This document shows, piece after piece, positions 6,785 to 61,714 of a stretch of 64,000 nt of DNA (its first letter is position 1; each line of letters starts with the position of its first letter). The stretch spans positions 6,448,001-6,512,000 of the forward strand of contig CM035351.1 of NCBI GenBank assembly GCA_020137815.1, read 5' to 3'. Under the pieces are notes generated by a model. It did no database searches. It was not told the origin of the DNA and worked only from the letters and a program-made list of their open reading frames with translations. Source of the stretch: Hormiphora californensis. Taxonomy: Eukaryota > Animalia > Ctenophora. A program made the position numbers and the translations under genes.

Positions 6785-7346
6785 GATTAGAATTCACAGT
6801 TGGAGTAACGATGTGATGAGCAATTCAAAACGAGGAGAACAGAAGTGATCATGATTATCTGCGTGAAGGATCATGCGATATCCTCTGTCACGTGATTCCT
6901 CCTCTCGTTCTCATTGGTCCACCTGTCATTATCAATCATCGGCCGTTTCTCATTGTCATTTTGCTAGAGATAGATAGAGATTATAGTGAAAGAGGGAGAG
7001 AGAGAGAGAGATAGAGAGAAATCTTCGAGAAGTGAGACGTTAATCTGTCTTCTCGTACGAGAGAGATAACAACTCAAGAACAAAGAAATCATTAGCAACA
7101 ATTTGTAGCTTGAGTCACATTTCACAAAATATCTGATCATTTCTGACATCTGACTAGAAAAACAACTCTACACAAAAAGCGGGAAACTCATTTCCGGCAG
7201 TAAGACCTTCTGTCACGGCAAATGCCGAAATGTTGAACTTTTTACAGCTTCGTCAAGCCGCGCGTGACAGAGCCACTCAACCGGGAACAGTGAAAACTAA
7301 ACTTAAAATTTGATAATTTTCAATGTTATTTTGTTTTTCCTACTTT

Positions 7347-9412
7347 CTAGGAATCAACATCGTATACAACATGTAGATCATAGCAGTGGCCACAGTGATG
7401 GGGACAACCAAACATTCCTTCGTCTGAATAACACCTCTTTCTTGTTTTGAATCTGTGGCACTCGATAAAGCTTCGAATATCACTGGACACACAATCAACC
7501 CGGCCACTACAATCATCTCCATAGAAACCCTGGGGGCAGGCACACATTTCCTCAAATTTAGAACCCGTTTCGGTGAGTTGGTTGGAGTAACGGCACACTT
7601 TGGGGTATTTGCAGGTTTTGGCACACGGTTCCTCGCAAGTAGGCCCAGCAAAACCAGCCACACACTCGCACGTTCCATCCAGATGACAGTATCCACCTGA
7701 TGTGGAAGATAGTAAATTGGGGAAAATTGTAAGATATTATGTAACCGTGTTATGTAACCAAATGTTACCTTATTGTAACCAATTCAGTGGTACTAACCGT
7801 TTTTGCAGTTACACACATTCTGACACTCCTTTCCCCAGGATTTCTGTCGGTTACAGATGCACAAACCTGCATCGTCACATCTCCCGTAGTTACACTTGCA
7901 CGGTTTCTTACACTGGGGGGTAGTGGTAACTTTAGGGGGCCGGGGCTTCAAGTATATCAATAGTAAGGGCCCCTACTATTACGTGGAGTTACAGTGGATA
8001 CAAGCTAAAGATGATTGGATTGTTCCTTGTACCTATACAGCATTACTAGGTCCATATTCTTGATTTATCTAAAATTGTCTGAAAGGGTAAGTTTCACTCA
8101 CGGTTAGTCCATAGTAGTCGTTTGAACAGATACAAGCACAACTCCTGTGAGACAACTGACCACCATTCTTGCACTTCAACTTGCACTCTTTCTCACACTT
8201 GTCACCATAGTAACCCTGTGAGACATGGGTATAAGATGATAGGGAGCAGCTAAAAGGGACATGATTTATGAAAACACGGAGAAGACTCAAGACAACCAAT
8301 GGATATTGAGAGAACTGCTAATATAATTGACCTTGTTGAGTTACTCAACAAAATTTACCAGGGTGCAGAAGCACGAATCCACAAGTTGAGTTTTAATGTA
8401 CCGTGCCCCATTCTGACATTCTAGTTTGTTGCTGTATGCTGTTACACGTGGTACTACAAAGGTGTTCCACAGGAACTGCCGCTCCCTAGTCCTAGCAACT
8501 CTGGGAGTGGGAGGGAGGGTGTTAGGAGCAACTCTGGGAGTGGCGGAGGGAGGGTGTTAGGAGCAACTCTGGGAGTGGCGGAGGGAGGGTGTTAGGAGCA
8601 ACTCTGGGAGTGGCGGAGGGAGGGGTGTTAGGAGCAACTCTGGGAGTGGCGGAGGGAGGGTGTTAGGAGCAACTCTGGGAGTGGGAGGGAGGGTGTTAGG
8701 AGCAACTCTGGGAGTGGGAGGGAGGGATTTTAGTCATTCTAGGGGGGGGGGGGGTACCACACAACTAGAAACAACTCACTTAGTGATATCTGGGTACCAC
8801 ACAACTTGAAACAACTCACTTAGTGATATCTGGGTACCACACATCCAGAGTTTTGGCAGCGTGAATCTTAGGTAGTACAGTACCGAAATAATTAGGGCCA
8901 TATGTCGCCAGCATTACCCACTGGGGCAGATACCTGGGGAGATATTTTATTTAGGGCACACATCTGACAGAATCATGAATTACATGGCATCATGAATTAC
9001 AAGGATAGATTGATGTATGGGTCAGGATCAAATCATGTAACGTACAAACAAACAAAAAAACAAACAAACAAACAAACAAACAAACAAACAAACAAACAAA
9101 CAAACAAACAAACAAACAAACAAACAAACAAACAAACAAACAAACAAACAAACAAACAAACAAACACACGTACTGTCTGGTAGAGTAGGTCTCACAATCA
9201 AAATCAAATATCTCATCAGCGACAAAGAATATCTCGTAACACATCCTCATCATAACAGCTAGGGGTCCCTTCTTGTAGAGGAGGGGTTTCACCACCGCCT
9301 CCCCATACGAGGTCACCAACTGGGCCCCAGAGCTACCAATACTGGCCCACACCTTAGCGGAGCTGTAATCAGCAAACTGGATGTACGCTTTACCCGGCAT
9401 AAACTGGACATC
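7347..9412 (-). pseudogene. Duplicated 3' part (six exons) of the papain-like/EGF/ShK gene, lacking its own 5' exons
   Basis: Same exons as about 11404-13497 with splice sites intact; translations identical where compared. Confidence 0.7.
8493..8727. repeat. G-rich intronic minisatellite (about 31-34 bp unit gtgttaggagcaactctgggagtggcggagggagg); second copy about 12570-12840
   Basis: Tandem units directly visible. Confidence 0.9.
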
Positions 9413-9493
9413 TGGGAAGAGAGATGGGGAGGCCATGCAATGGTAACGAAGTTACCCCTCTCTTGCCGGCGCGGCGTGCGAAGCACGCCAAAC

Positions 9494-10740
9494 CCGGGAA
9501 GGGCTACAAATTGGTCCCGGGTTTGTGTGATTTGGTCAAAAGGTCTCTTTACTGTGGCCCATCAAAGATGGCCACTCTGCAAATACGTATTTGGCTCTTG
9601 TGGCTGCAGATGTAAACCAAAAGAAAATTTATTATACACTAAAATTTGCGTCTTCCCAAGGCGAACAACCTGGTTTTTACGACATTCCATTTCATGCAGG
9701 CGTTCAAAAATGACAGCAGAAAAACTGGTACAGTGGATTTCGGAAATACCCCTACTTCAACAAACCCTAATCCAGATAAGATTTCGCAAAAATATACATC
9801 TTTATACATGAAAATGAAGCTCAGACAAATGCCAACGTGATGCAAAAAACGGGAAGTGTCTAACTTATTTCGTTTAGAAGCTATTGCCAAAGTAAAAGTG
9901 CTTATATTTGCCTTGAAAACACCCTCTAAAAGCCCTGAAAAACAGCAAATCTGTCTAAAAATGCAATACGAATAAAATGTCACCTCCAGTGCACCAACTT
10001 AGTCCCCTGTGGACAGAATTTGTTTGAAATTGTCAGAAATTGTGTAAAAGTATGGTTTTTAGAGGGTGTTTTTAAGGCAAATATAAGCACTTTTACTTTG
10101 GCTATAGCTTCTAAACGAAATAAGTTAGACACTTCTCGTTTTTTGCATCACGTTGGCATTTGTCTGAGCTTCATTTTCATGTATAAAGATGTATATTTTT
10201 GCGAAATCTTATCTGGATTAGGGTTTGTTGAAGTAGGGGTATTTCCGAAATCCACTGTACCAGTTTTTCTGCTGTCATTTTTGAACGCCTGCATGAAATG
10301 GAATGTCGTAAAAACCAGGTTGTTCGCCTTGGGAAGACGCAAATTTTAGTGTATAATAAATTTTCTTTTGGTTTACATCTGCAGCCACAAGAGCCAAATA
10401 CGTATTTGCAGAGTGGCCATCTTTGATGGGCCACAGTAAAGAGACCTTTTGACCAAATCACACAAACCCGGGACCAATTTGTAGCAAATCGATTGTATTT
10501 TATTAGTCTAGAAGCACAAGATCATATCTTGAAATGAAATATTTTTAAAATCTCTAGAAAGCGTAAAAAGTCGAAAATCGCTGAAAAATGACAGTTTTTG
10601 CCGTTTTACGCAAAAACCGCTACGTATTCGATTTTAATTTTATGTTTTTCGGATTCCTCGGTCAAAAATACGTAACCTAGGTCCGGTCTCCAAAATACTT
10701 TATCTAGCCGAGGTTTCACCTCCTTAAGGGACACCGTGTA
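9494..10740. mobile_element. Truncated non-autonomous Tc1/mariner-like element with an internal inverted repeat of about 430 bp
   Basis: Arms 9503-9931 and 10057-10485 are reverse complements. Right end reads TA|CACGGTGTCCC on the minus strand, resembling TA|CAGGGTG-type Tc1/mariner termini. No matching left end seen. Confidence 0.6.
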
Positions 10741-13577
10741 GAGAGATGTAAGATGTTAGAAATAAAACAGTAAAACACACTGGACACTGGACATCGATTT
10801 TAATAAAACAGCCGGGAAATATAACTTACCATGATTAGAATTCACAGTTGGAGTAACGATGTGATGAGCAATTCAAAACGAGGAGAACAGAAGTGATCAT
10901 GATTATCTGCGTGAAGGATCATGCGATATCCTCTGTCACGTGATTCCTCCTCTCGTTCTCATTGGTCCACCTGTCATTATCAATCATCGGCCGTTTCTCA
11001 TTGTCATTTTGCTAGAGATAGATAGAGATTATAGTGAAAGAGGGAGAGAGAGAGAGAGATAGAGAGAGTCGAGAGAAATCTTCGAGAAGTGAGACGTTAA
11101 TCTGTCTTCTCGTACGAGAGAGATAACAACTCAAGAACAAAGAAATCATTAGCAACAATTTGTAGCTTGAGTCACATTTCACAAAATATCTGATCATTTC
11201 TGACATCTGACTAGAAAAACAACTCTACACAAAAAGCGGGAAACTCATTTCCGGCAGTAAGACCTTCTGTCACGGCAAATGCCGAAATGTTGAACTTTTT
11301 ACAGCCTCGTCAAGCCGCGCGTGACAGAGCCACACGACCGGGAACAGTGAAAATTAAACTTAAAATTTGACAATTTTCAATGTTATTTTGTTTTTCCTAC
11401 TTTCTAGGAATCAACATCGTATACAACATGTAGATCATAGCAGTGACCACAGTGATGGGGACAACCAAACATTCCTTCGTCTGAATAACACCTCTTTCTT
11501 GTTTTGAATCTGTGGCACTCGATAAAGCTTCGAATATCACTGGACACACAATCAACCCGGCCACTACAATCATCTCCATAGAAACCCTGGGGACAGGCAC
11601 ACATTTCCTCAAACTTAGAACCCGTTTCGGTGAGTTGGTTGGAGTAACGGCACACTTTGGGGTATTTGCAGGTTTTGGCACACGGTTCCTCGCAAGTAGG
11701 CCCAGCAAAACCAGCCACACACTCGCACGTTCCATCCAGATGACAGTATCCACCTGATGTGGAAGATAGTAAATTAGGGGAGTATTGTAAGATATTATGT
11801 AACCGTGTTATGTAACCAAAGGTGACCTTAATGTAACCAATTCCGTGGTACTAACCGTTTTTGCAGTTACACACATTCTGACACTCCTTTCCCCAGGATT
11901 TCTGTCGGTTACAGATGCACAAACCTGCATCGTCACATCTCCCGTAGTTACACTTGCACGGTTTCTTACACTGGGGGGTAGTGGTAACTTTAGGGGGCCG
12001 GGGGGGGGGGGGGGGGGGGGGGCTTCAAGTATATCAATAGTAGGGGCCCCTACTATTACGTGGAATTATAGTGGATACAAGCTAAAGATGATTGGATTGC
12101 TCCTTGTACCTATACAACATTACTAGGTCCAAATTCTTGATTTATCTAAAATTGTCTGAAAGGGTAAGTTTCACTCACGGTTAGTCCATAATAATCGTTT
12201 GAACAGATACAAGCACAACTCCTGTGAGACAACTGACCACCATTCTTGCACTTCAACTTGCACTCTTTCTCACACTTGTCACCATAGTAACCCTGTGAGA
12301 CATGGGTATAAGATTATAGGGAGCAGCTAAAAGGGACATGATTTATGAAAACACGGAGAAGACTCAAGACAACCAATGGATATTGAGCGAACTGCTAATA
12401 TAATTGACCTTGTTGAGTTACTCAATAAAATTTACCAGGGTGCAGAAACACGAATCCACAAGTTGAGTTTTAATATACCGTGCCCCATTCTGACATTCTA
12501 GTTTGTTGCTGTATGCGGTAACACGTGGTACTACAAAGGTGTTCCACAGGAACTGCCGCTCCCTAGTCCTAGCAACTCTGGGAGTGGGAGGGAGGGTGTT
12601 AGGAGCAACTCTGGGAGTGGTGGAGGGAGGGTGTTAGGATCAACTCTGAGAGTGGGAGGGAGGGTGTTAGGAGCAACTCTGGGAGTGGGAGGGAGGGGTG
12701 TTAGGAGCAACTCTGGGAGTGGTGGAGGGAGGGGTGTTAGGAGCAACTCTGGGAGTGGGAGGGGGGGGGGGTGTTAGGAGCAACTCTGGGAGTGGGAGGG
12801 AGGGTGTTAGGAGCAACTCTGGGCGTAGGAGGGAGGGGTTTTAGTCATTCTAGGGGGGGTATCACACAACTAGAAACAACTCACTTAGTGATATCTGGGT
12901 ACCACACAACTAGAAACAACTCACTTAGTGATATCTGGGTACCACACATCCAGAGTTTTGGCAGCGTGAATCTTAGGTAGTACAGTACCGAAATAATTAG
13001 GGCCATATGTCGCCAGCATTACCCACTGGGGCAGATACCTGGGGAGAGATTTTATTTAGGGCACACATCTGACAGAAGGTAGTTTGAAGTTAGAGGTATG
13101 GATCAGGATTAAATCACGTAATGTACAAACAAACAAACAAACAAACAAACAAACATACAAACAAACAAACAAACAAACAAACAAACAAACAAACAAACAA
13201 ACAAACAAACAAACAAACAAACAAACAAACAAACAAACAAACAAACATACACACTTACTGTCTGGTAGAGTAGGTCTCACAATCAAAATCAAATATCTCA
13301 TCAGCGACAAAGAATATCTCATAACACATCCTCATCATGACGGCTAGGGGTCCCTTTTTGTAAAGGAGGGGTTTCACCACCGCCTCCCCGTACGAGGTCA
13401 CCAACTGGGCCCCAGAGCTACCAATACTGGCCCACACCTTAGCGGAGCTGTAATCAGCAAACTGGATGTACGCTTTACCCGGCATAAACTGGACATCTGG
13501 GAAGAGAGATGGGGAGGCCATGCAATGGTAACGAAGTTACCCCTCTCTTGCCGGCGCGGCGTGCGAAGCACGCCAAA
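10739..13577. repeat. Copy B of the 2.8-kb tandem duplication
   Basis: Near-identical to 6690-9493; continuous with the rest of the protease-like gene. Confidence 0.95.
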
Positions 13578-23821: not shown

Positions 23822-24934
23822 TCATTTTTCATAGACTTTTAGGGATGCAAGATTCCTCCACTTATCCTTCAGGTTGACATTGGTTCTGCCCGGAGCGAAA
23901 CTGAAGGATTTATCTGCTAGAATGGCAGCCCAATTAGAATGACCATGCTTTTTAACACCATCAATTAAACACTTTGCTTCTTCATCTGTCCACTTCATGC
24001 GTATACCACTCCTTACTGAATCATTAATCGACGCATCTCCCACACTTCTCTTTGACATTCGTCTTGACCGGTTTGTTATTTGGACGGGAGACTCAGAGAC
24101 ACTTATATCCTCGTCTGTTTCTGTCTGTTTCTGTCTGGATCTGTTTGCTTTCCTTTTCTCAGGTTTTGGAGATTGCTTCGGAGAGACTAACCCAACAACA
24201 ACCACCTTAGAATTTTTCTTGGCTGGCGACTTGGCTCCTCGTGTCTTTCTCTTTTTAGCTGGTTTTGGTGCAGGTGGTGGACTGTTTTCAATATCAGAAT
24301 CATTTTCCTTGGACTGCTCCTCTACTACCTGTTCCTCAACTTTTCCCTCTTCCGTTAGTACCAAACTCGGCCCAATTTTCCTGTGGAAGGGAACAAACGC
24401 AAGACAGAGTTGCCGGTGGAAAGCCATAGTGATATCATCTATAACGTTATCATCATTTAACGAATCGGCAACTATGGTGGTGTACTTTAGACGGAGAATA
24501 GGACACAAGTTTATAATTTCTTTCAAAGTTTTATCCAAATCTTCCATGGTGCCTTCTGTATGTCGTAGATAGAGCATTTCTCGATAGCAAGTAAACACAG
24601 ACTCCACATTGATAATTCTCTCTTCATCTTCCTCATTTATTTCCACTTCATATGTGTTCGCTGCATGTTGTAAATCGTCAGCAAATTTATTTTGAACCTC
24701 ATGCACCAGTTCCATGTCCTCTGCCGAAATAACACTGACCAGAATCTCATGAAGTTCCAGTCGGAATTTGAGCATGGTGGGTATGTTCAGGGGAAGGTGA
24801 TCCCTGTAGACATTTATCATCGCAAGACAGCGCTTGGATAAAGCAGGGTTACAGCCATGGACGGATTCAATATACTCCCAGAGGAGCCCATCTATGACCA
24901 GGAACAACTCCTGGGTTCTTTCATCTGCGGCCAT
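23822..24934 (-). CDS. Telomere-repeat-binding-factor-like protein (C-terminal single Myb/telobox), intronless
   Basis: KWTDEEAKCLIDGVKKHGHSNWAAIL...RTNVNLKDKWRNL telobox signature; helical N-terminal half; basic linker. Confidence 0.85.
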   Translation of the reverse strand: MAADERTQELFLVIDGLLWEYIESVHGCNPALSKRCLAMINVYRDHLPLNIPTMLKFRLELHEILVSVISAEDMELVHEVQNKFADDLQHAANTYEVEINEEDEERIINVESVFTCYREMLYLRHTEGTMEDLDKTLKEIINLCPILRLKYTTIVADSLNDDNVIDDITMAFHRQLCLAFVPFHRKIGPSLVLTEEGKVEEQVVEEQSKENDSDIENSPPPAPKPAKKRKTRGAKSPAKKNSKVVVVGLVSPKQSPKPEKRKANRSRQKQTETDEDISVSESPVQITNRSRRMSKRSVGDASINDSVRSGIRMKWTDEEAKCLIDGVKKHGHSNWAAILADKSFSFAPGRTNVNLKDKWRNLASLKVYEK

Positions 24935-25487
24935 GTTTTCTGAAGAATAGAATTGTAGCTTAACGGGATCGTGAAGTACAAACTACAAACCTAACAGAGG
25001 GTAGTGTGCAGCGTTTGCTAAGGCCTAAGCAGTAGAGCGAAACACGAGTTCAAAATAAAAGTGGTCGCAAACTTAGCAAACGTTGCTGTCCCCAGCAGCG
25101 GGATAAGGCAGCGCTTTCCAAGTAGCAAACCGTCTTTTTAAAATGTTCGGCCAAAAATTCGGGCGCCGTTACGATCTGGGTGTTTGGATGCCTGTTTACA
25201 GGTGCACGCTGCCAAAAAAGTTGATTCACTAAAATGGCTCTAACCGCCAAACCACTCAACCGTTTTGGCTGATTCAAAGTTTATCGGGTAGGGAATGTCA
25301 AGGCCTAACCCCAACCCAAACCCCAACCCTAACCCTACTTTAGCCCTAACCCTAAAAAACCGTTTGTCAGCACTCCCAAAACACCCAGATTTTAACGCTG
25401 GCCAAAAATTCTGTGCGCCGTTACGATCTGGGTGTTTGGAGGCCTGTTTACAGGTGCGCGCTGCCAAAAAAGTTGATTCACTAAAAT

Positions 25488-26760
25488 CATCATCATCATC
25501 ATCAATAAACATTTAATATCCCGCTTTTTAGCACATATTACAAACTAACACTCACAAAAAGATAAACCTTAATGGATAGTTTAGAACTTTCTAAAGCGGC
25601 TTCCTTAGATCGAGATTCAGTTAATAGTCTAGGACCGTAGATAAGAGTTCGTACACACTATTTTATACTCTAGCATATCCCATCGGCACTCACACAATAT
25701 TCAAATCAGGTACCCTCAACCACCTCATTCCCACGAATAATGTAGTGTTTGTTAGGATACTTCTTAGCCATTTGCTTCAGCCGATCTACCAACTGTTTCC
25801 TTACATTCCTCTCCTCCGTTGTTCGATCCGGGGAAATATAGACTTTATCATACTTTTCAGTCCCTCTAAGTTGGGATTTTTTCGACAGAATCGACTTCTG
25901 AGCGTCTCTGTTTCGAAGCACGACTTTTACCGGTCTGGCAGTTTGAGACTGCTTTCCTAAGCGCTCTAACGACCTCACTAACGGAGCCTCTTCCAGCTCA
26001 GCAAAAAGAGACTTCACTTGAGTTTCAAGCTCATCACTCTTGTCATTCAGTTCGTCCAAACCATGGATGATGATGTTACAGCCACGATCATCAGAGGCTG
26101 CAACAAAGGCCGACTGAATCTTCTTTGGAGCAAGGGCAGTAGCACATTCTTTCTCCAGGACAGATGCAAAGCTCTTCATCTCCTGCTGTGCCGTTGTTTT
26201 AACAGCGGTGATTTCAGTTTCTCTCTTTTCGAGCAACTGCCTCTGGATCTTCAGCAATTCCTCTTGTGCCGCTACAAGGGTCCTCTGGGTTTCGATAAGC
26301 TCTTTACTGTGCATTTTGAGCTCTTTCTCATATTGCCTCATCATCATGGTTTCATATCCCATATGTGCCAACTGTTCACCAACTGGGAAGGTCTGTTCAA
26401 TGAGAATACGGCATGCACCCTCCACTAGGTCTAGAAGCACTGGCTTGTTCAGTGCACTGAGTTTGTTCCTGGAGGGAACTTTCAGATCATCCCAGATTTC
26501 CACTATTTGTGGTCCGTACTTCACTCGACTCGGATCTGTTTCACCAAACCCTCCAGTTAGCGTTAATATCTCGCTTACCCACTCTACAGTTTGTTCTTGG
26601 CAGTATCGGATGTCATCCTCTTCTACGTCTGTTTCCCGCAGGTTGATCCGCGTTTCTTCTTCATTATCGGAGCTTGTCATTTTCTTGCTGCCCTCTTGGG
26701 CTCTTACATAGACATTTGCTCAATAAATAGTTTTACGTTGTAGTTGATGAAAGTTTGAAA
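25488..26760 (-). mobile_element. ORF1-only non-LTR retroposon: SL-like 5' end, ORF1, L2-like 3' UTR, (GAT)n tail
   Basis: Interrupts the host repeat exactly at cactaaaat|ggctct (intact copies at about 25227-25240 and 27778-27791); ends in gatgatgatgatgat; short aaat duplication or microhomology. Confidence 0.85.
25706..26680 (-). CDS. LINE ORF1p-like protein (coiled coil plus RRM/CTD type), 324 aa, intact
   Basis: Coiled-coil region, then NIIIHGLDE, RLGK, RPVKVVL, VYISPDRT..ER..RKQL: motifs typical of L1/L2/CR1 ORF1 proteins. Confidence 0.85.
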   Translation of the reverse strand: MTSSDNEEETRINLRETDVEEDDIRYCQEQTVEWVSEILTLTGGFGETDPSRVKYGPQIVEIWDDLKVPSRNKLSALNKPVLLDLVEGACRILIEQTFPVGEQLAHMGYETMMMRQYEKELKMHSKELIETQRTLVAAQEELLKIQRQLLEKRETEITAVKTTAQQEMKSFASVLEKECATALAPKKIQSAFVAASDDRGCNIIIHGLDELNDKSDELETQVKSLFAELEEAPLVRSLERLGKQSQTARPVKVVLRNRDAQKSILSKKSQLRGTEKYDKVYISPDRTTEERNVRKQLVDRLKQMAKKYPNKHYIIRGNEVVEGT

Positions 26761-27422
26761 TGGCTCTAACCGCCAAACCACTCAACCGTTTTGGCTGATT
26801 CAAATTTTATCTGGTAGGGAATGTCAAGGCCTAACCCCAACCCAAACCCAAACCCCAACCCTAACCCTAACCCTACTTTAGCCCTAACCCTAAAAAACCG
26901 TTTGTCAGCACTCCCAAAACACCCAGATTTTAATTTTTAACGCTGGCCAAAAATTCTGACTTTTTAAAAAAATTTTTTTTCAGTTTCTGATATATTTCAA
27001 CGCGCGCGGCGCGACCTTATATTAAGACGTCAGCGCTGCCGCCTGAAATAAACTTAAAGGGAAAAGAGAGATAGATAGAAATAGTAAGAGAGAGCAATTT
27101 CTCTCTCTTAGTAATTCTATCTATCTCTCTTTTCCCACGGTCGTGGGAATACCGTAAGAGCTTCCACTATTAAAACTGCGCGTTTAGAAATTGACGACGG
27201 AACTCTTTTTTTCACTTTTTCACTGTTGTGTTCCGATTCGGGCGCCGTTGGAAAACGTTAAAATCTGGGTGCCTTTCATTGCTAACAATTCGTAGTTTTG
27301 GCGCGCGCGACGGGTTAGGGCTATCCGTTAGGGTCTGGTTAGGGTTTGGTTTGGGGTTATCGGTTAGGGCTATCGATTCTCTAACTGATACCGTTTAGTT
27401 TACTCAAATCGGCCATGTGGTT

Positions 27423-27612
27423 CCATGGAGGCGAGACACTGTGTTGAGACGCGCACCATTGCGACGCGCATTGCGACGCGCATTTTGGCTTTGCGACGCG
27501 CATTTTGGTATTGCGACGCGCACATGCGCGTCGCAATGCTTAAATGCGCGTCGCAAAGCCAAAATGCGCGTCGCAATGGTGCGCGTCTCAACACAGTGTC
27601 TCGCCTCCATGG
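27423..27612. mobile_element. Near-perfect palindrome of about 190 bp (MITE-like) with internal ttgcgacgcgca subrepeats
   Basis: ccatggaggcgagacactgtgttgagacgcgcacc ... ggtgcgcgtctcaacacagtgtctcgcctccatgg. Confidence 0.75.
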
Positions 27613-28350
27613 CTAAAGCCGTTTGAAGAAAGTCGGTCTAAGTATACTCTTTTGGTAGCGCGCACCTGTAAACAGGCTGCAAGGCACCCAGATTATAATC
27701 GCGCCCGGCGCCGTTAAAAAAACGATCTGGGTGTTTGGAGGCCTGTTTACAGGTGCGCGCTGCCAAAAAAGTTGATTCACTAAAATGGCTCTAACCGCCA
27801 AACCACTCAACCGTTTTGGCTGATTCAAAGTTTATCTGGTAGGGAATGTCAAGGCCTAACCCTAACCCTACTTTAGCCCTAACCCTAAAAAACCGTTTGT
27901 CAGCACTCCCAAAACACCCAGATTTTAACGCTGGCCTCCCGATTCCGTAACTCGTAAGCTTGTTTAATCGAGTTTTCATGCATGATATTTCCTGGTCATA
28001 ACTCGACCAGTGCCAATTGTCACTTTTGGTAGGAGCCACGAGATATAGAGGAGGTTGTTTGTGTGTCTGGTGGTCAGTTGAATACTTATTATTTTGTGTG
28101 TTCTAGGAAGTGGAGATTTGGGAGTTGATTGGTTTCTTTTATGTGACGGATCCCCAGAACTCGGTAAAAAAAGAGCCTGGGTTAAAAAATCAAAAAAGCA
28201 AAGAAAAAAAAAAAGAATATTAAAAAAAAAAAAAAAAAAAAAAAATCAAAAAAAAAAAATCAAAAAAAAAAGAAAAAAAAAAGAGGCAATAAAAAAGAAT
28301 AATAAAAAAATAAAAAAAGCCCACCCTTCTTTCTCTCAACCTCTTTTCTT

Positions 28351-31699: not shown

Positions 31700-34600
31700 T
31701 CGCCAACCCACAATGTTTCCCCCCCTTTTCCCCCCCCCCCCCCCCTTCCCCCTCTTTTTAAAAATTACCCTGGAACAGGGGACCGTTCCACCCCTGTGGA
31801 ACCCCCCAAGCCCCTTTTTCTACTAAACCCCTAAACCCAAACCCCTTTTTCTAAATCCCCTTTCTAACCCCAAACCCCCTAACCCTTTCCAGTACCACCC
31901 CCGTTCCTTAGAGGTGTTAAAAACCCCCTTCCACGAGGGGGGAGTTTTCCCCCTCCCCAGAGGAATTTCCCCTTTTGGGCCTCCATTTGCCCCTTATTCT
32001 ACTTCAAAACCCCTAAACCCTCCCTTGATCCCAATTTTGGGTAAAAACCCCCATTCCATTTTTTTAATAGGGGCTCCCCCCAGTTAGGGTTGTTTTTCCC
32101 TTAGAGAGAAAAAGTTTTTCCCCGGGCCAAGAGGGAAAAGTTTTAAAAAAACCCCCCTCCAGGAGATGTAGTTTAACCCCCTTTCCCGGGGAGGAATGTT
32201 TTTCCCCGCTTTACAGAGGATAGTTGCCCCCGGGGGTAAGGGGTTTGTCCGCCCCCCCCTCCCCCCCCTTTCGCTTAAAATTTTTTTACCAAACCCCCCC
32301 TTTCCCGAGGGGTAATTTTTTACCCGCTTCACAAGGATATTTTAAGGGCCCCTTTTTCCCGAGAGGGGGTGTTTAACCCCGCTTTCACAGAGGATGTTTA
32401 AATTTCCCCCGCTTCCCCAAAAGGATATTTTCCCCCGTCCCCGAAAAGGGTATTTTTTAAACCCCATACCCCCTTCCTGAAGGGGTGTTTTTTCCCCCGG
32501 GTCCAGGAGGATGTTTTTCCAAAACCCCAACCCAAAATATTTACCTTCACACCCCCCCCTTCCCCCCAGAGAAGGGGGGGTAAAATTGCCCTCTTCCCCC
32601 CGATGGGGTTTTTCCCCTTCCCCCCTTTTTTCCCCGCTGAGGGGAATTTTTACCCCGCTTCAACCCGGGTTTTTTACCCCCCCATTTTCCCAAAATTTTT
32701 TGTCCACCCTTTTTCCGGCCCCCCCGGCCCCCAAAGTATAGTTTAACCCCCTTTTACAAGGATAGTTTGCCCCGTCCCAAAAAGGATAGTTCCCCCAAAA
32801 AACCCCCTAACCCCCTTCCTGGAAGATGTTTTCCCCACCCCGCTTCACAGAGGAAAAGTTGCCCCCCTTTCCCCGAGAGGATTTCTAAAACCACCCCCAT
32901 ACCTCCCTTTTCCCTTCCCCGAGGAATTTTAAAAAAACCCCCCTCCACGAGGAAAAGTTGCCCCCTTCCGGAGAGGGAATTTTACCCCCCGTTCCCTGGG
33001 GGAGGGAAATTTATTCCCCTCCCCCCAAAAGGAAAAAGGGGGTTTCCCCCCTCCGGGGGGGAAATTTTTTCCCCAAACCCCGTTCCCCCTTGATCATAAT
33101 CCCTTTACACACGGGCCCCTGGCCCAAATCCACCCAAATTGACTTTATAAAAGATCACAAACCCTACGCTGAAAGTGTGGTTTTGTGCTGAAAAGCCCGC
33201 AAGGATGGACGGGCAAACCATCTACTAAACGGGAAAACCCAAAAGTGGGCGGGGGATTCCCTTTTACCAACCCCCCTGCCACCGGTGTCAAATTTTTAAA
33301 AAACCCCCCCAAAAACCCCGGCCCTTCTTTCAAAAAACCGATGACTATTAAAATACGGATTGGTTTGAAAAATCACCCCCAAAAATTACTCATCTTTTCG
33401 ACATTGGGAACAAAAAAACCCCAAAACCCCCGGGGAAGGGTCCCGGTCAAAAAGGGGAAAGAACCTGACTTGGTATAAAACTGGGTAACTAAATAACTTT
33501 CCCCAAATTTCCCCGGGACAAAATCTGGATCCTGGAAAGGCTTTGAACGCCCCGTGGGAAGATAAAGGATATGACCCCCTGCCAGGAAAAAAACCGCTTT
33601 GGGGATTCAGATCTATAGAGAAATCTTTAACACATGGTAAAAATCCGACGGAGATGACCATTTTCAACCCTAGCGAAATGGCCTAAAAGTCTCCCGGTAG
33701 TGGGCCTCCCCGGTTAAAAATTTAAAAACCGCGGTCCCCTTTAAAAAAACAAGTTGGGGGGGAAAAACCCCCATTCCGCCCCAAACCCCCCCCCCAAACC
33801 CCCCCCACCCCCCCCCAAAACCCCCCCTACTAAACCCACAAAAAATTTACCACAAAATTAACCAAAACGCTCTTTTTTACCACTTTATCCCCACCAAAAA
33901 TAAAAGGAGTTGGGAAACCCCATTTGGGGGATAATTTTTAAATAAACCAAACCCACCCTTCCCCTTTCTTTAAAAACCCCCCCTCAGATCCCAAATGAAT
34001 TTTTATAACTCATACGGGACATCCCCTTTTACCACAAAGGGTAAAGGAAATCAGAGAAACGGGGGCCAACATCTGAACGTGGAGAGACCAAACGCGGCCC
34101 GGCCAAACTGAGCCAAGGGCAAAACCCCCTTTCCCAAAAAACCCTTTTCAAACCCAAAAAACCCAGTGGAAAACGAAGAACCCCCCGCCTACCCCCCGAA
34201 ACCATAGGGCTGTTTCCAAAAAATCCTTTGATGGAAACCGAGCCCATCAAGGGCCCTGACTTGAGACAAGGGGCCCCTTGGGGGAAACCCCACGTGTGGC
34301 AAACGTCGACTAGGGCCGGTCATTAAAAAAAAAAACTTTGAAAACCCCAGCTTCAACCACACTGAAACGCTCCGATTTGGGTTTTTGTACTCAGGTTTTT
34401 TCCCAAACCCAAAAGGGAAAATTTAGGCACCAGTGAAACTACCAGCAACCCCCCCCAAAAAAAACAAAAAAAACCTATGTGGGGTGGGGACACTCGAAGG
34501 AGTGGGCCCCCCAAAACTTCGCTCAGACCTTCTAGGGTGACCGAAAAAGAGGGAAGGGGGGGGCCACCCAAAAATTCCAAACTATAGATATCATATAGGG

Positions 34601-37600
34601 AAAAACCCCTCCTACCCCCAAAAGGCTAAAAAACAAAGGGGGATAGGAAAAAATTTAAGCAGAGAAATGCTGGCAAAGGGCCGGGGGAAAAATTAAAAGA
34701 TACAAGAAGAAGGCAAACCTTTTTGCGGAAAAAAACCTGTTTCCCAAACAAACAACCCAAACTTTTTTACCGGAAACTGGAAAAACTTGGGTCGGATCCC
34801 ATAAAACTTTAATCCCCAGAAACCCAAATAGGGCCCCTTAAAAATTCTGGGAAAAAAATCTGGGAAAAAAGAAACTGGCCATAAAAAACCCCGCAGGGAG
34901 AGTGGTTTGACCGGTGTCCCAAAAAATTTTGGAAAAAAGGTCAACCAACGGAGGATTTCCAGATCAACCACGGAAAAGATTTACCGGGCCCCTGCGAAAG
35001 GAATGCCAACTGGTCCTCCCCTGGTTTTTGACGGTCTCCCCCAACGCCCTTTGGATTAAAAACCGACCTGCCTCCATGGGCGGTCACTGGGGGTTCATAA
35101 ATGAAAAACCTCGGGTACGAGTCAGGGGGCCCCAGCGTGGAAAACTGAAGGGAAAAACCTTTCTCCTTCCCCTGGTTAAAGACCCCCCAAGAAGGGCCCC
35201 CCAACCCGGGGTTTTTAAAACTTCAGGGGCCCCTAAAAACCCTTCTCCCCAACCTCTGGAAGTTTTATACCCAAAAAATATTATCAAAAACCCCAGACCA
35301 GCACCCTCGAGGGAAGCGGGGCTCCTTTCCCGGAAAAAAGCAAAAGGGGTGGGCCCGGGAAAAAGACAGGGGGTACCCGGGGGCAAATAGGCAACGCAAA
35401 ATGATCTTGGGGGGACATTTTCAAACGCACAAAATTTATCGGGGTTTTTATGGCCCCCAACATCGATTTAAAAAAAAGGCCTCCCACCCCGATCCCACAC
35501 TCCTGGATCCTAAAAACCCAAAAGGAGATTTTCAAAATAAACCCCCAAGAAATCCCCCGGGGTTCGAGGCAAACGTTCCCAAAAGTTGTTGTCCAAAAAT
35601 AGGGAAAAACTGGCCAGGGGCCCCAAGGGCCCAAAACACATCAAGAGAGGCCTCTTCCAAGGAGGGCGCGTCTCCCCTATACACTTTATTAAGGACTGAT
35701 TTCCCCTTTTTCCCTGCTCCCCCCAAGGGGCCCCCCGGGGAGGCTACCCCAAACCCAATCCAAATGCTTCCCAAACACAACATCTAGAATTTAAAAAACC
35801 CCCCGCCCTTAAAGGCCGGGGGCCTTAACTTAAAAAAAAAAAAAAAAAAAAATTCAAAAGGAAAAAAAAAAACCTTTTTCCCCCACCTTAAAAAATTCCC
35901 CCGGGGTTTACCCCCTTTTGGGAAAACCAAAATCAACATGTCCTTTTGGGATATCCAAATGTGGGGCCTAGACACGTGGGTGGAGTCGAAGGGCCCAAAA
36001 GGCCGGGGAAAAGACCCCTTTCCCCTGGAACGAATTTCCTAAGTGGAGGGTGGGGGCTACAAAGTCCCTCCAAACCTGGAGATTTACTGTATTCTACCCT
36101 CCCAAAAAATGAAAGCTAAGGTTCCCAAAAAAACGAGACAAAATCGAAGAGTTTAAGAAGCTTTTCCTCCGGGGGCCTGTCAGGCAAGAAAAATTTTCAC
36201 TGCAACAAACACAGGGGGGGGGATAACCCCGTTTATCCGTTCGGGTGTGAATTCTTTGGGTGGAAACCAATTCCGAAACCAAAAAGGGCTAGTAGCATTA
36301 AACCCCCCGGGCCCCCTTAGAAAAAAGGGGTTCAACATCATGACTCCCCTCGACATAAGGGCACCAAAAAGGAAAAAAAAGGGGGGTAGGGGGCCCCCCC
36401 AGGGGGATTGGGGGAAAATGTCATTGCGAAAGGGAAAAACAGGAAATCGGACGTTTTTCAACAAATCCACTGGGTCAAAATCTTTGCCCCCACGCAAGGG
36501 TGGGGAGAAAAAGGGGGTGGGTAATTACAGCCCAGGGAAAAACCCAAAACCATGAAGGAAAGATTGGGAGGGGATCTCTTGGGAAATGGAAAGCAAAGTG
36601 TTTTCATGGAAGATTCTTGACAACTTAAAGAAAGGGGGGTTTCGAAACCCCCCTGCCGGGGACCTTGGGGCCCGGGGTCAACAAAGAGAGCCTCGGGGAG
36701 AAAATACCTAACCGACGTATTTTCTGCCCGGATCCAAAGCCACTTTGCACAAAACTGGCTTTAAGGGTGGGTATCGAGAAAGAGGGGTGGAGCGACAGAG
36801 AATTTCCCCTATATGAACCAACACAAAGAGTCGGTGGGGAAAAACCCCAAACTTAAAAAGGTGGGACGAAACTTTGCCAAACAGATTTTTAAACCCCACC
36901 GATCGAGTAGGGTGCTGCCCCCACAAAATTGGGGGTTTTGCCAGGGCCTCCCCCCCCTTTGGTAATTTTTCCACCTAACCGTCAAAGTGGGGGGGGCCAC
37001 TATGCGAGAAAGTGCTTCGAGAATGAGAACTGGGAAATTCCCTCTGGGAAAAATTTCCCCCATACCAAAGGATAACCCCCCAAACGGGCGGTTTAAAAAA
37101 CCCGAAATTGGGGGCCTTCTAAACAAACTAAAGAAGGGAAACGCTTCTGATCGATTCCGCTTTACCAAAGGACAGGTCAGTCTCAGAAAAGGGAGATGGA
37201 GAAATCGAAATTAAACCCGAACTACGGGGGGGGCTCAACACCCAAACGGGGTTTTTAAAAAGGCCACGTTTATCCCTAAACTATCCCACTTTTTGGGCAT
37301 TACCCCCCCCGACTGGAGAAGTATCTGAAAGGTATAAACCCCCAAGGTTTTTTCCCCCCCACAAAACCCCGCAAAATCTTTTCCCCTTCAATCCGATTAA
37401 CACGCCCCCCGGGTTTTTTCCCTTTCATTAAACCAACCCCCCCAGCTTTATCCCCCCCTTGGGAATTTTTATTTTAAAATTTTTTATCGGGGTTTTTTCC
37501 CATTTTTTTGTTTGGTTGGAAAAAATTTGGCTTTTTTCCCCTTTTTTCCAAATTTCCGGTTTTTTTTCGTTCCCGGGTCCTTTTCCCGTTCGTTTTAAAT

Positions 37601-59394: not shown

Positions 59395-61290
59395 TTGGTT
59401 GTTGGTAGTATGGACGTTTTGTTGGTTTTGTTTGTTGGTTTTGTTGGTTTGTTGGTTTTGTTTGTTATTTTTGTTGGTTTTGTTTGTTGGTTTTGTTAGT
59501 TTAGTTAGTTTCTTGGTTTTGTTTGTTAATTTTGTTGGTTTTATTGGCTTTGTTGGTGAATTTTGTTGGTTTTGTTTGTTGGCAAAGGACTAACAAATCA
59601 CAACACAACCAACAAATCTCAACACAACCAACAAATCTCAACAAAACAACAAATCTCAACAAACTAACAAATCTCAACACAACCAACAAATCTCAACAAA
59701 ACAACAAATCTCAACAAACTAATAAATCTCAACACAACCAACAAATCTCAACAAAACAACAAATCTCAACAAACTAACAAATCTCAACTCAACCAACAAA
59801 TCTCAACTCAACAACAAATCTCAACAAACTAACAAATCTCAACACAACGAACAAATGTCAACAAAACAACAAATGGTAAGTCGGAAGAACCTGTCCGTTC
59901 CTCTCATGAGCGCTCATGAGTGTATCATGAGTGTGTCATGAGTGTATCATGAGTGTATCATGAGCGCTCATGAGACGTTTTTAGGTGTTTCAACGTCTCA
60001 TGAGCGCTCATGAGTGTATCATGAGTGTGTCATGAGTGTATCATGAGCGCTCATGAGTGCTCATGAGACCTTGCTCATGAGCGCTCATGAGACATATGTC
60101 TCATCCCATCTCTGTTTCAATGTCTCATGAGCGCTCATGAGACGTTTTGACCTACATGTGCTCATGAGTGTATCATGAGACATGTCTCATGAGACATATG
60201 TCTCATGAGACGTTAGGGTTATGGTTATGGTTGGGTTTACGGGTTGGGCTAGGGTTAGGGCTTATCCTTTAGGTCTAGGGACCCGTAGAGGGTAGGGCTA
60301 GGGTGACCCATAGGCCTATGGGTCAACCCTAACCCTATCCCTACGGGTCCCTAGACCTAAAGGAAAGCCCTAACCCTAGCCCAACCCTAAACCCAACCAT
60401 AACCCTAACCCTAACGTCTCATGAGACATATGTCTCATGAGACATGTCTCATGATACACTCATGAGCACATGTAGGTCAAAACGTCTCATGAGCGCTCAT
60501 GAGACATTGAAACAGAGATGGGATGAGACATATGTCTCATGAGCGCTCATGAGCAAGGTCTCATGAGCACTCATGAGCGCTCATGATACACTCATGACAC
60601 ACTCATGATACACTCATGAGCGCTCATGAGACGTTGAAACACCTAAAAACGTCTCATGAGCGCTCATGATACACTCATGATACACTCATGACACACTCAT
60701 GATACACTCATGAGCGCTCATGAGAGGAACGGACAGGTTCTTCCGACTTACCCAACAAATCTCAACAAAACAACAAATCTCAACAAACTAACAAATCTCA
60801 CCACAACCAACATATCTCAACACAACCAACAAATCTCAACAAACCAACAAATCTCGACACAAGTCACAACCAACAAATCTCAACAAACTGAGAAATCTCA
60901 ACACAACCAACAAATCTCAACAAAACAAAAAATCTCAACAAACAACAAATATCAACAAACTAACAAATCTCAACTCAACCAACAAATATCAACAAAACAA
61001 CAAAACAACAAATCTCAACAAAACAACAAATCTCAACAAACCAACAAATCTCAATGAAGTTTTGTTGAGATTTGTTGTTTTGCTGAGATTTGTTGTTTTG
61101 TTGAGATTTGTTGATTTTTTGTGATTTTTTGGTTTGTTGAGATTTGTTTTGTTGAAATTTATTATTTTGTCGAGATTTGTTGTGATTTTTTTTGTTGAGA
61201 TTTGTTGATTTGTTGAGATTTGTTGTTTTTTGTGATTTTTTGGTTCGTTAAGATTTGTTTTGTTGAGATCTGTTGGTTGTGTCGAGATTT
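59395..61290. repeat. Degenerate aacaaatctcaacaaa(c) minisatellite (about 19 bp) in both orientations
   Basis: Visible at 59593-59874 and 60753-61053, inverted at 61058-61290 and more loosely at 59395-59582. Confidence 0.9.
59875..60752. mobile_element. 878-bp near-perfect palindromic MITE, GGTAA termini, 8-bp TSD (Merlin-like)
   Basis: ggtaagtcggaagaacctgtccg ... cggacaggttcttccgacttacc; caacaaat on both sides; centre near 60314. Confidence 0.85.
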
Positions 61291-61291
61291 G

Positions 61292-61714
61292 GGTAAGTCG
61301 GAAGAACCTGTCCGTTCCTCTCATGAGCGCTCATGAGTGTATCATGAGTTTGTCATGAGTGTATCATGAGTGTATCATGAGCGCTCATGAGACGTTTTTA
61401 GGTGTTTCAACGTCTCATGAGCGCTCATGAGTGTATCATGAGTGTGTCATGAGTGTCTCATGAGCGCTCATGAGTGCTCATGAGACCTTGCTCATGAGCG
61501 CTCATGAGACATATGTCTCATCCCATCTCTGTTTCAATGTCTCATGAGCGCTCATGAGACGTTTTGACCTACATGTGCTCATGAGTGTATCATGAGACAT
61601 GTCTCATGAGACATATGTCTCATGAGACGTTAGGGTTAGGGTTAGGGTTGGGTTTACGGTTGGGCTAGGGTTAGGGTTATCCTTTAGGGTCCCTAGGCTT
61701 GGTTAGTTACCAAG
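61292..61714. mobile_element. Left arm of another copy of the same MITE, running into the assembly gap
   Basis: Same terminus and arm as 59875-60270. Confidence 0.85.

What the first reader, a model, noticed from the sequence alone, without database searches (positions are those of the whole stretch)
25488..26760. ORF1-only retroposon whose 5' end looks like a trans-spliced leader
Seen: on the minus strand the insert reads TTTCAAACTTTCATCAACTACAACGTAAAACTATTTATTGAG (26760-26719), then 38 nt, an intact 324-aa LINE ORF1, a 3' UTR of about 200 nt and a (GAT)n tail. There is no RT. It cleanly interrupts a host repeat whose empty site is visible nearby. Knowledge (from memory, needs verifying): ctenophore spliced leaders are about 40-46 nt, AT-rich, start like TTTCAAACTTT and end in TTGAG. 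The 42-mer is not followed by a GT donor, so it looks like a spliced product rather than an SL RNA gene. Inference: a promoter-less, half-LINE-like element whose RNA receives its 5' end by SL trans-splicing and is retroposed in trans. The copied leader ends in AG and might act as the next acceptor, allowing repeated cycles from read-through transcription.
Basis: partly seen in the sequence, partly recalled or inferred. Interest (0 to 1): 0.88.

Follow-up and report, generated by a model that had tools for sequence, protein, structure and literature searches.

The report
Spliced-leader-headed ORF1-only comb jelly retroposon
This is an intact copy of a multi-copy comb jelly jumping gene that encodes only an RNA-packaging protein and starts with the short leader these animals splice onto their messenger RNAs, so it likely spreads as a host-trans-spliced RNA copied back into DNA by another element's enzyme, possibly with no promoter of its own.

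Summary
The 1.27-kb insert carries a 42-nt head, an intact 324-aa ORF that folds like human LINE-1 ORF1p, a 202-nt 3' UTR and a (GAT)n tail. It interrupts a host repeat that has two empty copies nearby. It belongs to a large ORF1-only family of Pleurobrachia-type ctenophores under purifying selection (dN/dS about 0.19).

The head is a spliced leader (SL). A 63%-identical relative, L002, starts with the published Hormiphora SL (41/41) followed by TTTTAG. DNA runs show an SL-TTTCAG-body form, and the window copy lacks exactly that acceptor-like hexamer. One probable RNA run holds only the leader block.

Two distant subfamilies thus carry different, little-decayed leaders, which points to repeated trans-splicing. 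Not shown: trans-splicing of this element's own RNA, lack of a promoter, use of the leader's own AG, and the partner LINE.

The scan's earlier notes report SL-headed LINEs in dinoflagellates and an ORF1-only element in tunicate SL genes, on other DNA. Nine literature searches found no SL-headed ORF1-only family. Verdict: new variant of a known kind.

The parts
26719..26760 (-). Spliced-leader exon copy (42 nt), lacking the first 2-3 nt of the full leader
   Evidence: Homologous to the SL of L002, which equals the published H. californensis consensus from base 4 on. High-depth block with sharp edges at 26719 and 26760 in DNA run X1; the only part covered in probable RNA run X22.
26718..26719 (-). 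Leader-body junction. Other copies carry an acceptor-like TTTCAG here; this copy lacks it
   Evidence: 6-nt insertion behind 26718 in X1, X5 and X8 (table 4); TTTTAG at the same place in L002.
26681..26718 (-). 38-nt 5' UTR, homologous to that of L002
   Evidence: Alignment.
25706..26680 (-). Intact 324-aa LINE ORF1p-type protein: long coiled-coil helix about aa 109-182, RRM about aa 200-285, C-terminal domain
   Evidence: Foldseek top 10 hits are all human L1 ORF1p, best E 3.7e-5. VIA Z 10.3, rmsd 2.4, 86 aligned. dN/dS 0.18-0.19.
25504..25705 (-). 202-nt 3' UTR
25511..25532 (-). 22-nt 3'-terminal motif identical in L001; its AAAGCGG can pair with CCGCTTT at 25599-25593; likely RT recognition signal (inferred)
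   Evidence: The window's own fold is not more stable than shuffles (z 0.10).
25486..25503 (-). (GAT)6 tail; its last AT overlaps the target
   Evidence: L001 has the same tail.
26761..26956 (-). Upstream part of the interrupted ~270-bp host repeat
   Evidence: very high depth in DNA runs.
25412..25487 (-). Downstream part of the interrupted host repeat; up to ATTT duplicated
25160..25411 (-). Adjacent empty copy of the host repeat; another lies at about 27700-27935

Best explanation
This is an intact copy of a multi-copy, ORF1-only, LINE-type retroposon family of a Pleurobrachia-type ctenophore whose 5' end is a copy of the host spliced leader, likely added to the element's RNA by trans-splicing and likely written into DNA by a partner LINE's reverse transcriptase. 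Likely cycle: (1) a copy is transcribed from host sequence (inferred); (2) the spliceosome adds a current SL at one of two tandem AGs, the one before the TTTCAG hexamer or the hexamer's own, giving SL-TTTCAG-body or, as here, SL-body (both DNA forms shown; splicing inferred); (3) the capped RNA is translated, and ORF1p coats it (selection shown; role from LINE biology); (4) a partner RT primes at the (GAT)n tail and conserved 3' motif and copies to within 2-3 nt of the cap, joining at a TTT microhomology (inferred). In retroposed SL-TTTCAG copies the first AG is the copied leader's own, so the head would renew itself each round without an element promoter (inferred, about even odds).
For: Fold is L1 ORF1p. 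The family has 61 hits, including Pleurobrachia bachei gene models. Among the six loci read, L001, L003 and L004 end in a tail or microsatellite within about 270 nt of the stop. L005 has a 3' end like L004's, L006 has 570 nt after the stop with no ORF longer than ORF1, and L002 ends about 100 nt after the stop, before any tail. dN/dS is 0.19 against L001 and 0.18 against L002; 20 of the 31 listed coding variants are synonymous against a synonymous-site share of 0.23. L002 shows flank, published SL (41/41), TTTTAG and a homologous 5' UTR. An SL-TTTCAG-body form is in X1, X5 and X8, two organism labels. Window and L002 fall in one clade (100/99) that excludes the three loci with non-SL heads. 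Their synonymous sites are nearly saturated (dS about 1.6), yet each leader matches a present-day leader. In X1, 189 of 279 contigs laid on 26590-26778 are at least 99% alike, and the 42-mer forms a block of summed depth up to 690,000 against about 12,000 in ORF1, with mixed neighbours on both sides. X22 covers only 26719-26760, with short contigs of depth 440 and 320, and covers neither ORF1 nor the host repeat. Only the exon is present, joined at its last base, with no SL intron.
Against: No RNA read or contig spans leader and body. X14 and X17 laid 0 contigs on the 5' end, and X22 has no ORF1. X22's four contigs differ from the 42-mer at 2-3 places, its RNA status is the tool's guess, and no mRNA continuing behind its leader was listed. 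Only two SL-headed copies were read in full; L001 and L004 are 5'-incomplete. 25 loose-end rows were not shown, and one X1 contig (depth 180) has 38 unaligned nt before the body. A GAG acceptor without a pyrimidine tract is weak. Loss of the hexamer could be a slip between two AG repeats. No partner LINE was found (weak test). Hydra TE transcripts are SL-capped in about 30% of reads (PMC12220107), so SL-headed copies could be by-products.
Confidence: 0.62

Rival explanations
1. Source copies have their own promoter and outron upstream of the tandem AGs. Only some transcripts are trans-spliced, and SL-headed copies such as this one are dead-end by-products.
For: The non-SL relatives L005 and L006 share a 5' motif that could be an internal promoter. 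In Hydra about 30% of TE Iso-Seq reads carry an SL (PMC12220107 passage). One X1 contig has 38 unaligned nt before the body.
Against: Both complete heads read in this clade are SL heads. The listed junction variants in X1, X5 and X8 are SL-hexamer-body, and no conserved non-SL extension is among the listed loose ends (tables truncated).
Confidence: 0.2
2. Master copies sit inside SL RNA genes right behind the exon and are transcribed from the SL gene promoter, so the RNA starts with an SL without trans-splicing, as with snRNA- or SL-gene-targeting elements.
For: CRE and NeSL target spliced leaders (PMC3636483 passage). The leader is very abundant in the genome (718 copies in H. californensis). 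An earlier scan note describes an ORF1-only element in tunicate SL genes (untested here).
Against: In the window the tail is followed by the host repeat, not an SL intron. It does not explain the conserved acceptor-like hexamer or its exact loss.
Confidence: 0.11
3. The leader was captured once or rarely and is now simply inherited as the 5' end, perhaps acting as a promoter as proposed for DinoSL relicts.
For: The DinoSL-promoter hypothesis exists (PMC6050394 passage). No RNA evidence of re-splicing was obtained.
Against: The two subfamilies differ by dS about 1.6, yet carry different leaders, one identical to a published present-day consensus.
Confidence: 0.05
4. A one-off internally deleted LINE or retrocopy whose ordinary 5' UTR resembles an SL by chance.
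For: The region is AT-rich.
Against: 41/41 match to the published SL in a relative, 0 of 10,000 shuffles, ORF1-only structure across the family, and purifying selection.
Confidence: 0.02

Closest known systems
ORF1-present non-autonomous LINEs: HAL1 (L1 clade), Ag-Sponge (CR1 clade), HeT-A (Jockey clade); PMC5786205 and PMC5753468, passages read
   Same: Encode only ORF1p, depend on a partner's RT, and are multi-copy.
   Different: The passages describe them as 5' plus 3' parts of a LINE. Here the 5' head is a host SL exon followed by an acceptor-like hexamer. The parent clade is not identified; a microsatellite tail and short or no TSD would fit CR1/L2-type partners (recalled).
Dinoflagellate DinoSL-tagged retrogenes (PMC6050394, passages read)
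   Same: SL-capped RNA is retroposed with its leader, and repeated rounds are inferred.
   Different: Those are host genes with stacked relict leaders. This is a selfish family in an animal whose head appears replaced rather than stacked.
SL-capped TE transcripts in Hydra, including CR1 (PMC12220107, passage and Fig. S5 legend read)
   Same: An animal retrotransposon RNA uses the host trans-splicing machinery.
   Different: Reported at RNA level in the passages read. They do not describe SL-headed genomic families, ORF1-only elements or renewal of the head.
CRE and NeSL SL-targeting retrotransposons (PMC3636483, passages read)
   Same: A non-LTR element lies next to an SL and is thought to be co-transcribed with host sequence.
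   Different: Those are autonomous RT plus restriction-like endonuclease elements inserted into SL genes. Here the SL travels with the insert into an unrelated repeat.
SINEU (PMC4494074, abstract read)
   Same: A spliceosomal-RNA-derived head is added recurrently to a retroposon's 5' end.
   Different: SINEU heads derive from U1 or U2 snRNA genes on SINEs. Here the head is an SL exon joined at its splice junction, on a protein-coding element.

Membership tests
ORF1-present non-autonomous LINE (HAL1-like kind) | Encodes a LINE ORF1p-type protein | tested here: met
   human L1 ORF1p ranks first in both searches. Pfam and PDB sequence searches found nothing relevant.
ORF1-present non-autonomous LINE (HAL1-like kind) | No ORF2/RT between ORF1 and the tail | tested here: met
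   Window: 202 nt from stop to tail. L001, L003 and L004 are alike.
ORF1-present non-autonomous LINE (HAL1-like kind) | Multi-copy family with ORF1 under purifying selection | tested here: met
ORF1-present non-autonomous LINE (HAL1-like kind) | Retroposition hallmarks: simple-repeat tail and empty site | tested here: met
   (GAT)6 tail, two empty paralogous sites, 0-4 bp duplication. An orthologous empty allele was not seen.
ORF1-present non-autonomous LINE (HAL1-like kind) | Autonomous partner LINE sharing ORF1 or the 3' end | tested here: inconclusive
   One search found one unrelated-looking long hit without Pfam domains; no genome was available.
HAL1 proper | Derived from an L1-clade element | not testable with these tools
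   The clade is defined on RT, and none was found. Fold likeness to L1 ORF1p does not fix the clade.
Ctenophore spliced leader | Sequence matches a published ctenophore SL, 35-48 nt, ending TGAG | tested here: met
   42 nt, ends TTGAG, first 11 nt identical to L002's leader, which equals the published consensus from base 4 on. It is a different variant, not within 90% of that consensus.
Ctenophore spliced leader | Found at 5' ends of unrelated mRNAs | tested here: inconclusive
   X22 holds only this block as short high-depth contigs, two of them ending at 26719, with 2-3 differences; no downstream mRNA was listed.
SL RNA gene | GT donor and intron behind the exon | tested here: not met
   The exon is followed by the element's 5' UTR; no Rfam hit over the head.
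CRE/NeSL SL-targeting retrotransposons | RT with restriction-like endonuclease, inserted in an SL gene | tested here: not met
   No RT; both flanks are the host repeat.
Dinoflagellate-type recycled retrogene | Stacked relict leaders behind the newest leader | tested here: not met
   None in the window or L002 (scan).

The most novel reading that the evidence does not exclude
A clade of promoter-less, protein-coding retroposons in an animal has replaced its own 5' end with the host's trans-splicing system. Each new copy carries a leader whose terminal AG, backed by a TTTYAG hexamer, is the acceptor for the next round, so the head is rewritten from the host's current SL pool every generation. 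Such retroposition of SL-capped RNA could also account for many of the hundreds of dispersed leader copies in ctenophore genomes.
Probability: 0.4. Interest if true: 0.85.

Novelty: new variant of a known kind. Interest (0 to 1): 0.7.

Why it matters
A retroposed copy normally must carry its own promoter. If confirmed, this family shows another route: host read-through plus trans-splicing supplies the cap and defines the 5' end. Because the leader dates each copy's last passage through RNA, the family gives a direct test of whether copies beget copies and of why ORF1-only elements keep ORF1 under selection. It also warns that many genomic leader copies in ctenophores may be retroposition products rather than SL RNA genes.

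Tried and rejected
No genome was held for the window, so no copy census was possible. Pfam found no LINE family and the PDB sequence search found 0 hits. Viral contigs held no ORF1 relative and no leader match. A loose leader pattern in prokaryote genomes gave 120 chance loci, best score 42 of 82-84 possible. The search for a longer fused ORF1-RT protein found nothing usable. RNA runs X14 and X17 laid no contig on the 5' end, which is no proof of absence. Rfam gave only sub-threshold hairpin matches, none over the head. The window's 3' hairpin is not more stable than shuffles (z 0.10; L001 -1.16), while L004 and L005 are (z -3.5, -4.1). A weak leader-like hit at about 22,760 is in other sequence and was set aside. 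The 35 close relatives of 300 aa or more with a contig length lie on contigs of 1,113-2,922 bp; this fits ORF1-only elements, but short contigs are the norm, so it was not counted as evidence. One cluster member lies on an unread 5.4-kb contig. The Atlas and representative-protein searches gave no result. Derelle 2010 (ctenophore SL set), the paper sought as the Hydra genome paper (id recalled) and the Hormiphora supplement could not be read and may list this leader variant or SL-headed elements. Template switching onto SL RNA was rejected because it would be expected to bring intron sequence along.

Full report
Observation. On the minus strand the insert reads: 42-nt head (26760-26719), 38-nt 5' UTR, a 324-aa ORF (26680-25706), 202-nt 3' UTR and (GAT)6. 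It splits a ~270-bp host repeat, and two further units nearby are empty. The junction reads as blunt or as a duplication of up to ATTT, with microhomology to both the head and the tail.

Protein. Pfam and PDB sequence searches name nothing relevant. An AlphaFold model from 19 sequences (mean pLDDT 79, pTM 0.35) shows a long helix, an RRM and a C-terminal domain. The top 10 Foldseek hits are human L1 ORF1p (best E 3.7e-5), and VIA ranks it first to third (Z 10.3, rmsd 2.4, 86 aligned). It is a LINE ORF1p-type protein; the LINE clade is not fixed by this.

Family and host. There are 24 homologues by single query and 61 by profile, and clusters include Pleurobrachia bachei gene models, so the window is likely from a pleurobrachiid ctenophore (inference). 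DNA runs X1, X5 and X8 cover the ORF with many divergent contigs; depth is not a copy number, but the family is plainly multi-copy. Six metagenome loci were read. L001 shares the window's 22-nt 3' motif and (GAT)n tail. L003 lies between (TC)n runs. L004 ends in an (ATT)n-like tail and L005 shares its 3' end. L006 has no longer ORF in 570 nt after the stop. L002 ends before its tail. dN/dS is 0.19 (L001) and 0.18 (L002, part before its frameshift). 20 of 31 coding variants are synonymous (p 8e-7); these are the rows shown, 40 of 229, so they are a selected set.

The head. The Hormiphora californensis paper gives a 44-nt leader consensus found on 56% of Iso-Seq reads and 718 times in the genome (PMC8527503, passages). 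L002 positions 55-95 equal it from base 4 on (41/41, compared by eye), followed by TTTTAG and a 5' UTR homologous to the window's. The window's 42-mer is a different variant, aligning with score 44 (0 of 10,000 shuffles). In X1 the 42-mer is a block with edges at 26719 and 26760, summed depth up to 690,000 against about 12,000 in ORF1, and mixed neighbours: 14 contigs leave at 26719 and 8 at 26760, agreement about 0.5. The consensus just upstream of it reads AG in X1 and GAG in X22, as the published leader begins, so the window copy lacks the first 2-3 nt. X22, guessed to be RNA, covers only this block (4 contigs, 2-3 differences) and neither ORF1 nor the very abundant host repeat. This fits a leader on other transcripts, but no such transcript was displayed.

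The hexamer. X1, X5 and X8 each hold contigs with TTTCAG between leader and body (depth 3,188, 1,350 and 1,292). The window copy lacks exactly these six bases, as splicing at the second of two tandem AGs would give. A slip between the two AGs cannot be excluded. Whether the hexamer-less form is itself multi-copy could not be told.

Tree. Window, L002, P0001-P0005, P0007, P0008 and a P. bachei model form one clade (100/99). L003, L005 and L006, which have non-SL heads, lie outside it (24 rows, midpoint root). L005 and L006 share a 5' motif, possibly an internal promoter. SL heads may therefore mark one derived clade, but only two heads in it were read in full.

Mechanism. Shown: the ORF1-only family, selection, SL heads of two variants on distant subfamilies, and two junction forms. 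Inferred: trans-splicing of element RNA, retroposition in trans from the 3' motif and tail, and transcription from host sequence. The element lies in sense about 550 bp upstream of a Myb-domain gene, and most long host ORFs in the window are on the same strand, which is compatible with read-through. Renewal is argued from nearly saturated synonymous sites (dS about 1.6) beside little-decayed leaders. Against use of the leader's own AG: it ends GAG, while four acceptor-like sites before host ORFs end YAG. No RNA spanning the junction was found. Rivals are promoter-bearing masters with dead-end SL copies (0.2), masters inside SL genes (0.11), an inherited head (0.05) and a one-off (0.02).

Known systems. 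ORF1-only LINE derivatives (HAL1, Ag-Sponge, HeT-A, passages), SL-tagged dinoflagellate retrogenes (passages), SL-capped Hydra TE transcripts (passage and supplement legend), SL-targeting CRE and NeSL (passages) and SINEU (abstract) each share a part. PMC7986045 and PMC4664967 were seen as passages and added nothing specific. Nine full-text searches (listings only for most hits) showed no SL-headed ORF1-only family. Repbase and subscription papers were not searchable, and Derelle 2010 and the Hormiphora supplement could not be read. Earlier scan notes on other genomes describe related cases; none matched this protein family. Host gene names other than Myb are my recognition, not tool results.

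Verdict. A real feature and a new variant of a known kind; interest 0.70. The self-renewing, promoter-less cycle has about 0.4 probability and would deserve 0.85.

Noticed in passing
L002:35-54: The flank directly upstream of the leader resembles the 3' part of the same leader (score 23; 19 of 3,000 shuffles). It may be a decayed neighbouring leader or just AT-rich DNA.
   Followed up: partly
L003 (whole): ORF1-only relative between (TC)n runs with no SL; its 5' end is a pyrimidine tract ending in AG, like an unspliced acceptor.
   Followed up: no
L004:1106-1200, L005:1236-1330: Non-SL-clade relatives have a strong 3' hairpin (z -3.5, -4.1) and a different tail, suggesting a different partner LINE.
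   Followed up: partly
L005:40-65, L006:326-352: Shared 5' motif in distant non-SL relatives; candidate internal promoter.
   Followed up: no
window 25160-27935: Cluster of a ~270-bp very high-copy repeat with short sub-terminal inverted repeats and telomere-like runs, plus two palindromic elements at about 27050-27140 and 27420-27620.
   Followed up: partly
window 23822-24934 (-): 370-aa ORF with a C-terminal Myb domain (TRF-like by recall), with an acceptor-like site 5 nt before its ATG.
   Followed up: partly
window 677-56809: Most long host ORFs are on the minus strand, and several have an acceptor-like YAG just before the ATG, compatible with trans-spliced gene clusters.
   Followed up: partly
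window 7340-9436 and 11397-13260: Local duplication of about 4 kb spacing; long inverted repeats at 9503-10485 and 59875-61688.
   Followed up: no
window 31700-35800: Homopolymer-rich, low-quality-looking sequence; possible assembly noise.
   Followed up: no
window 26719-26760 in run X1: The leader block is far deeper than ORF1 in genomic DNA and has mixed neighbours on both sides, so many other sequences are SL-headed in this genome.
   Followed up: partly
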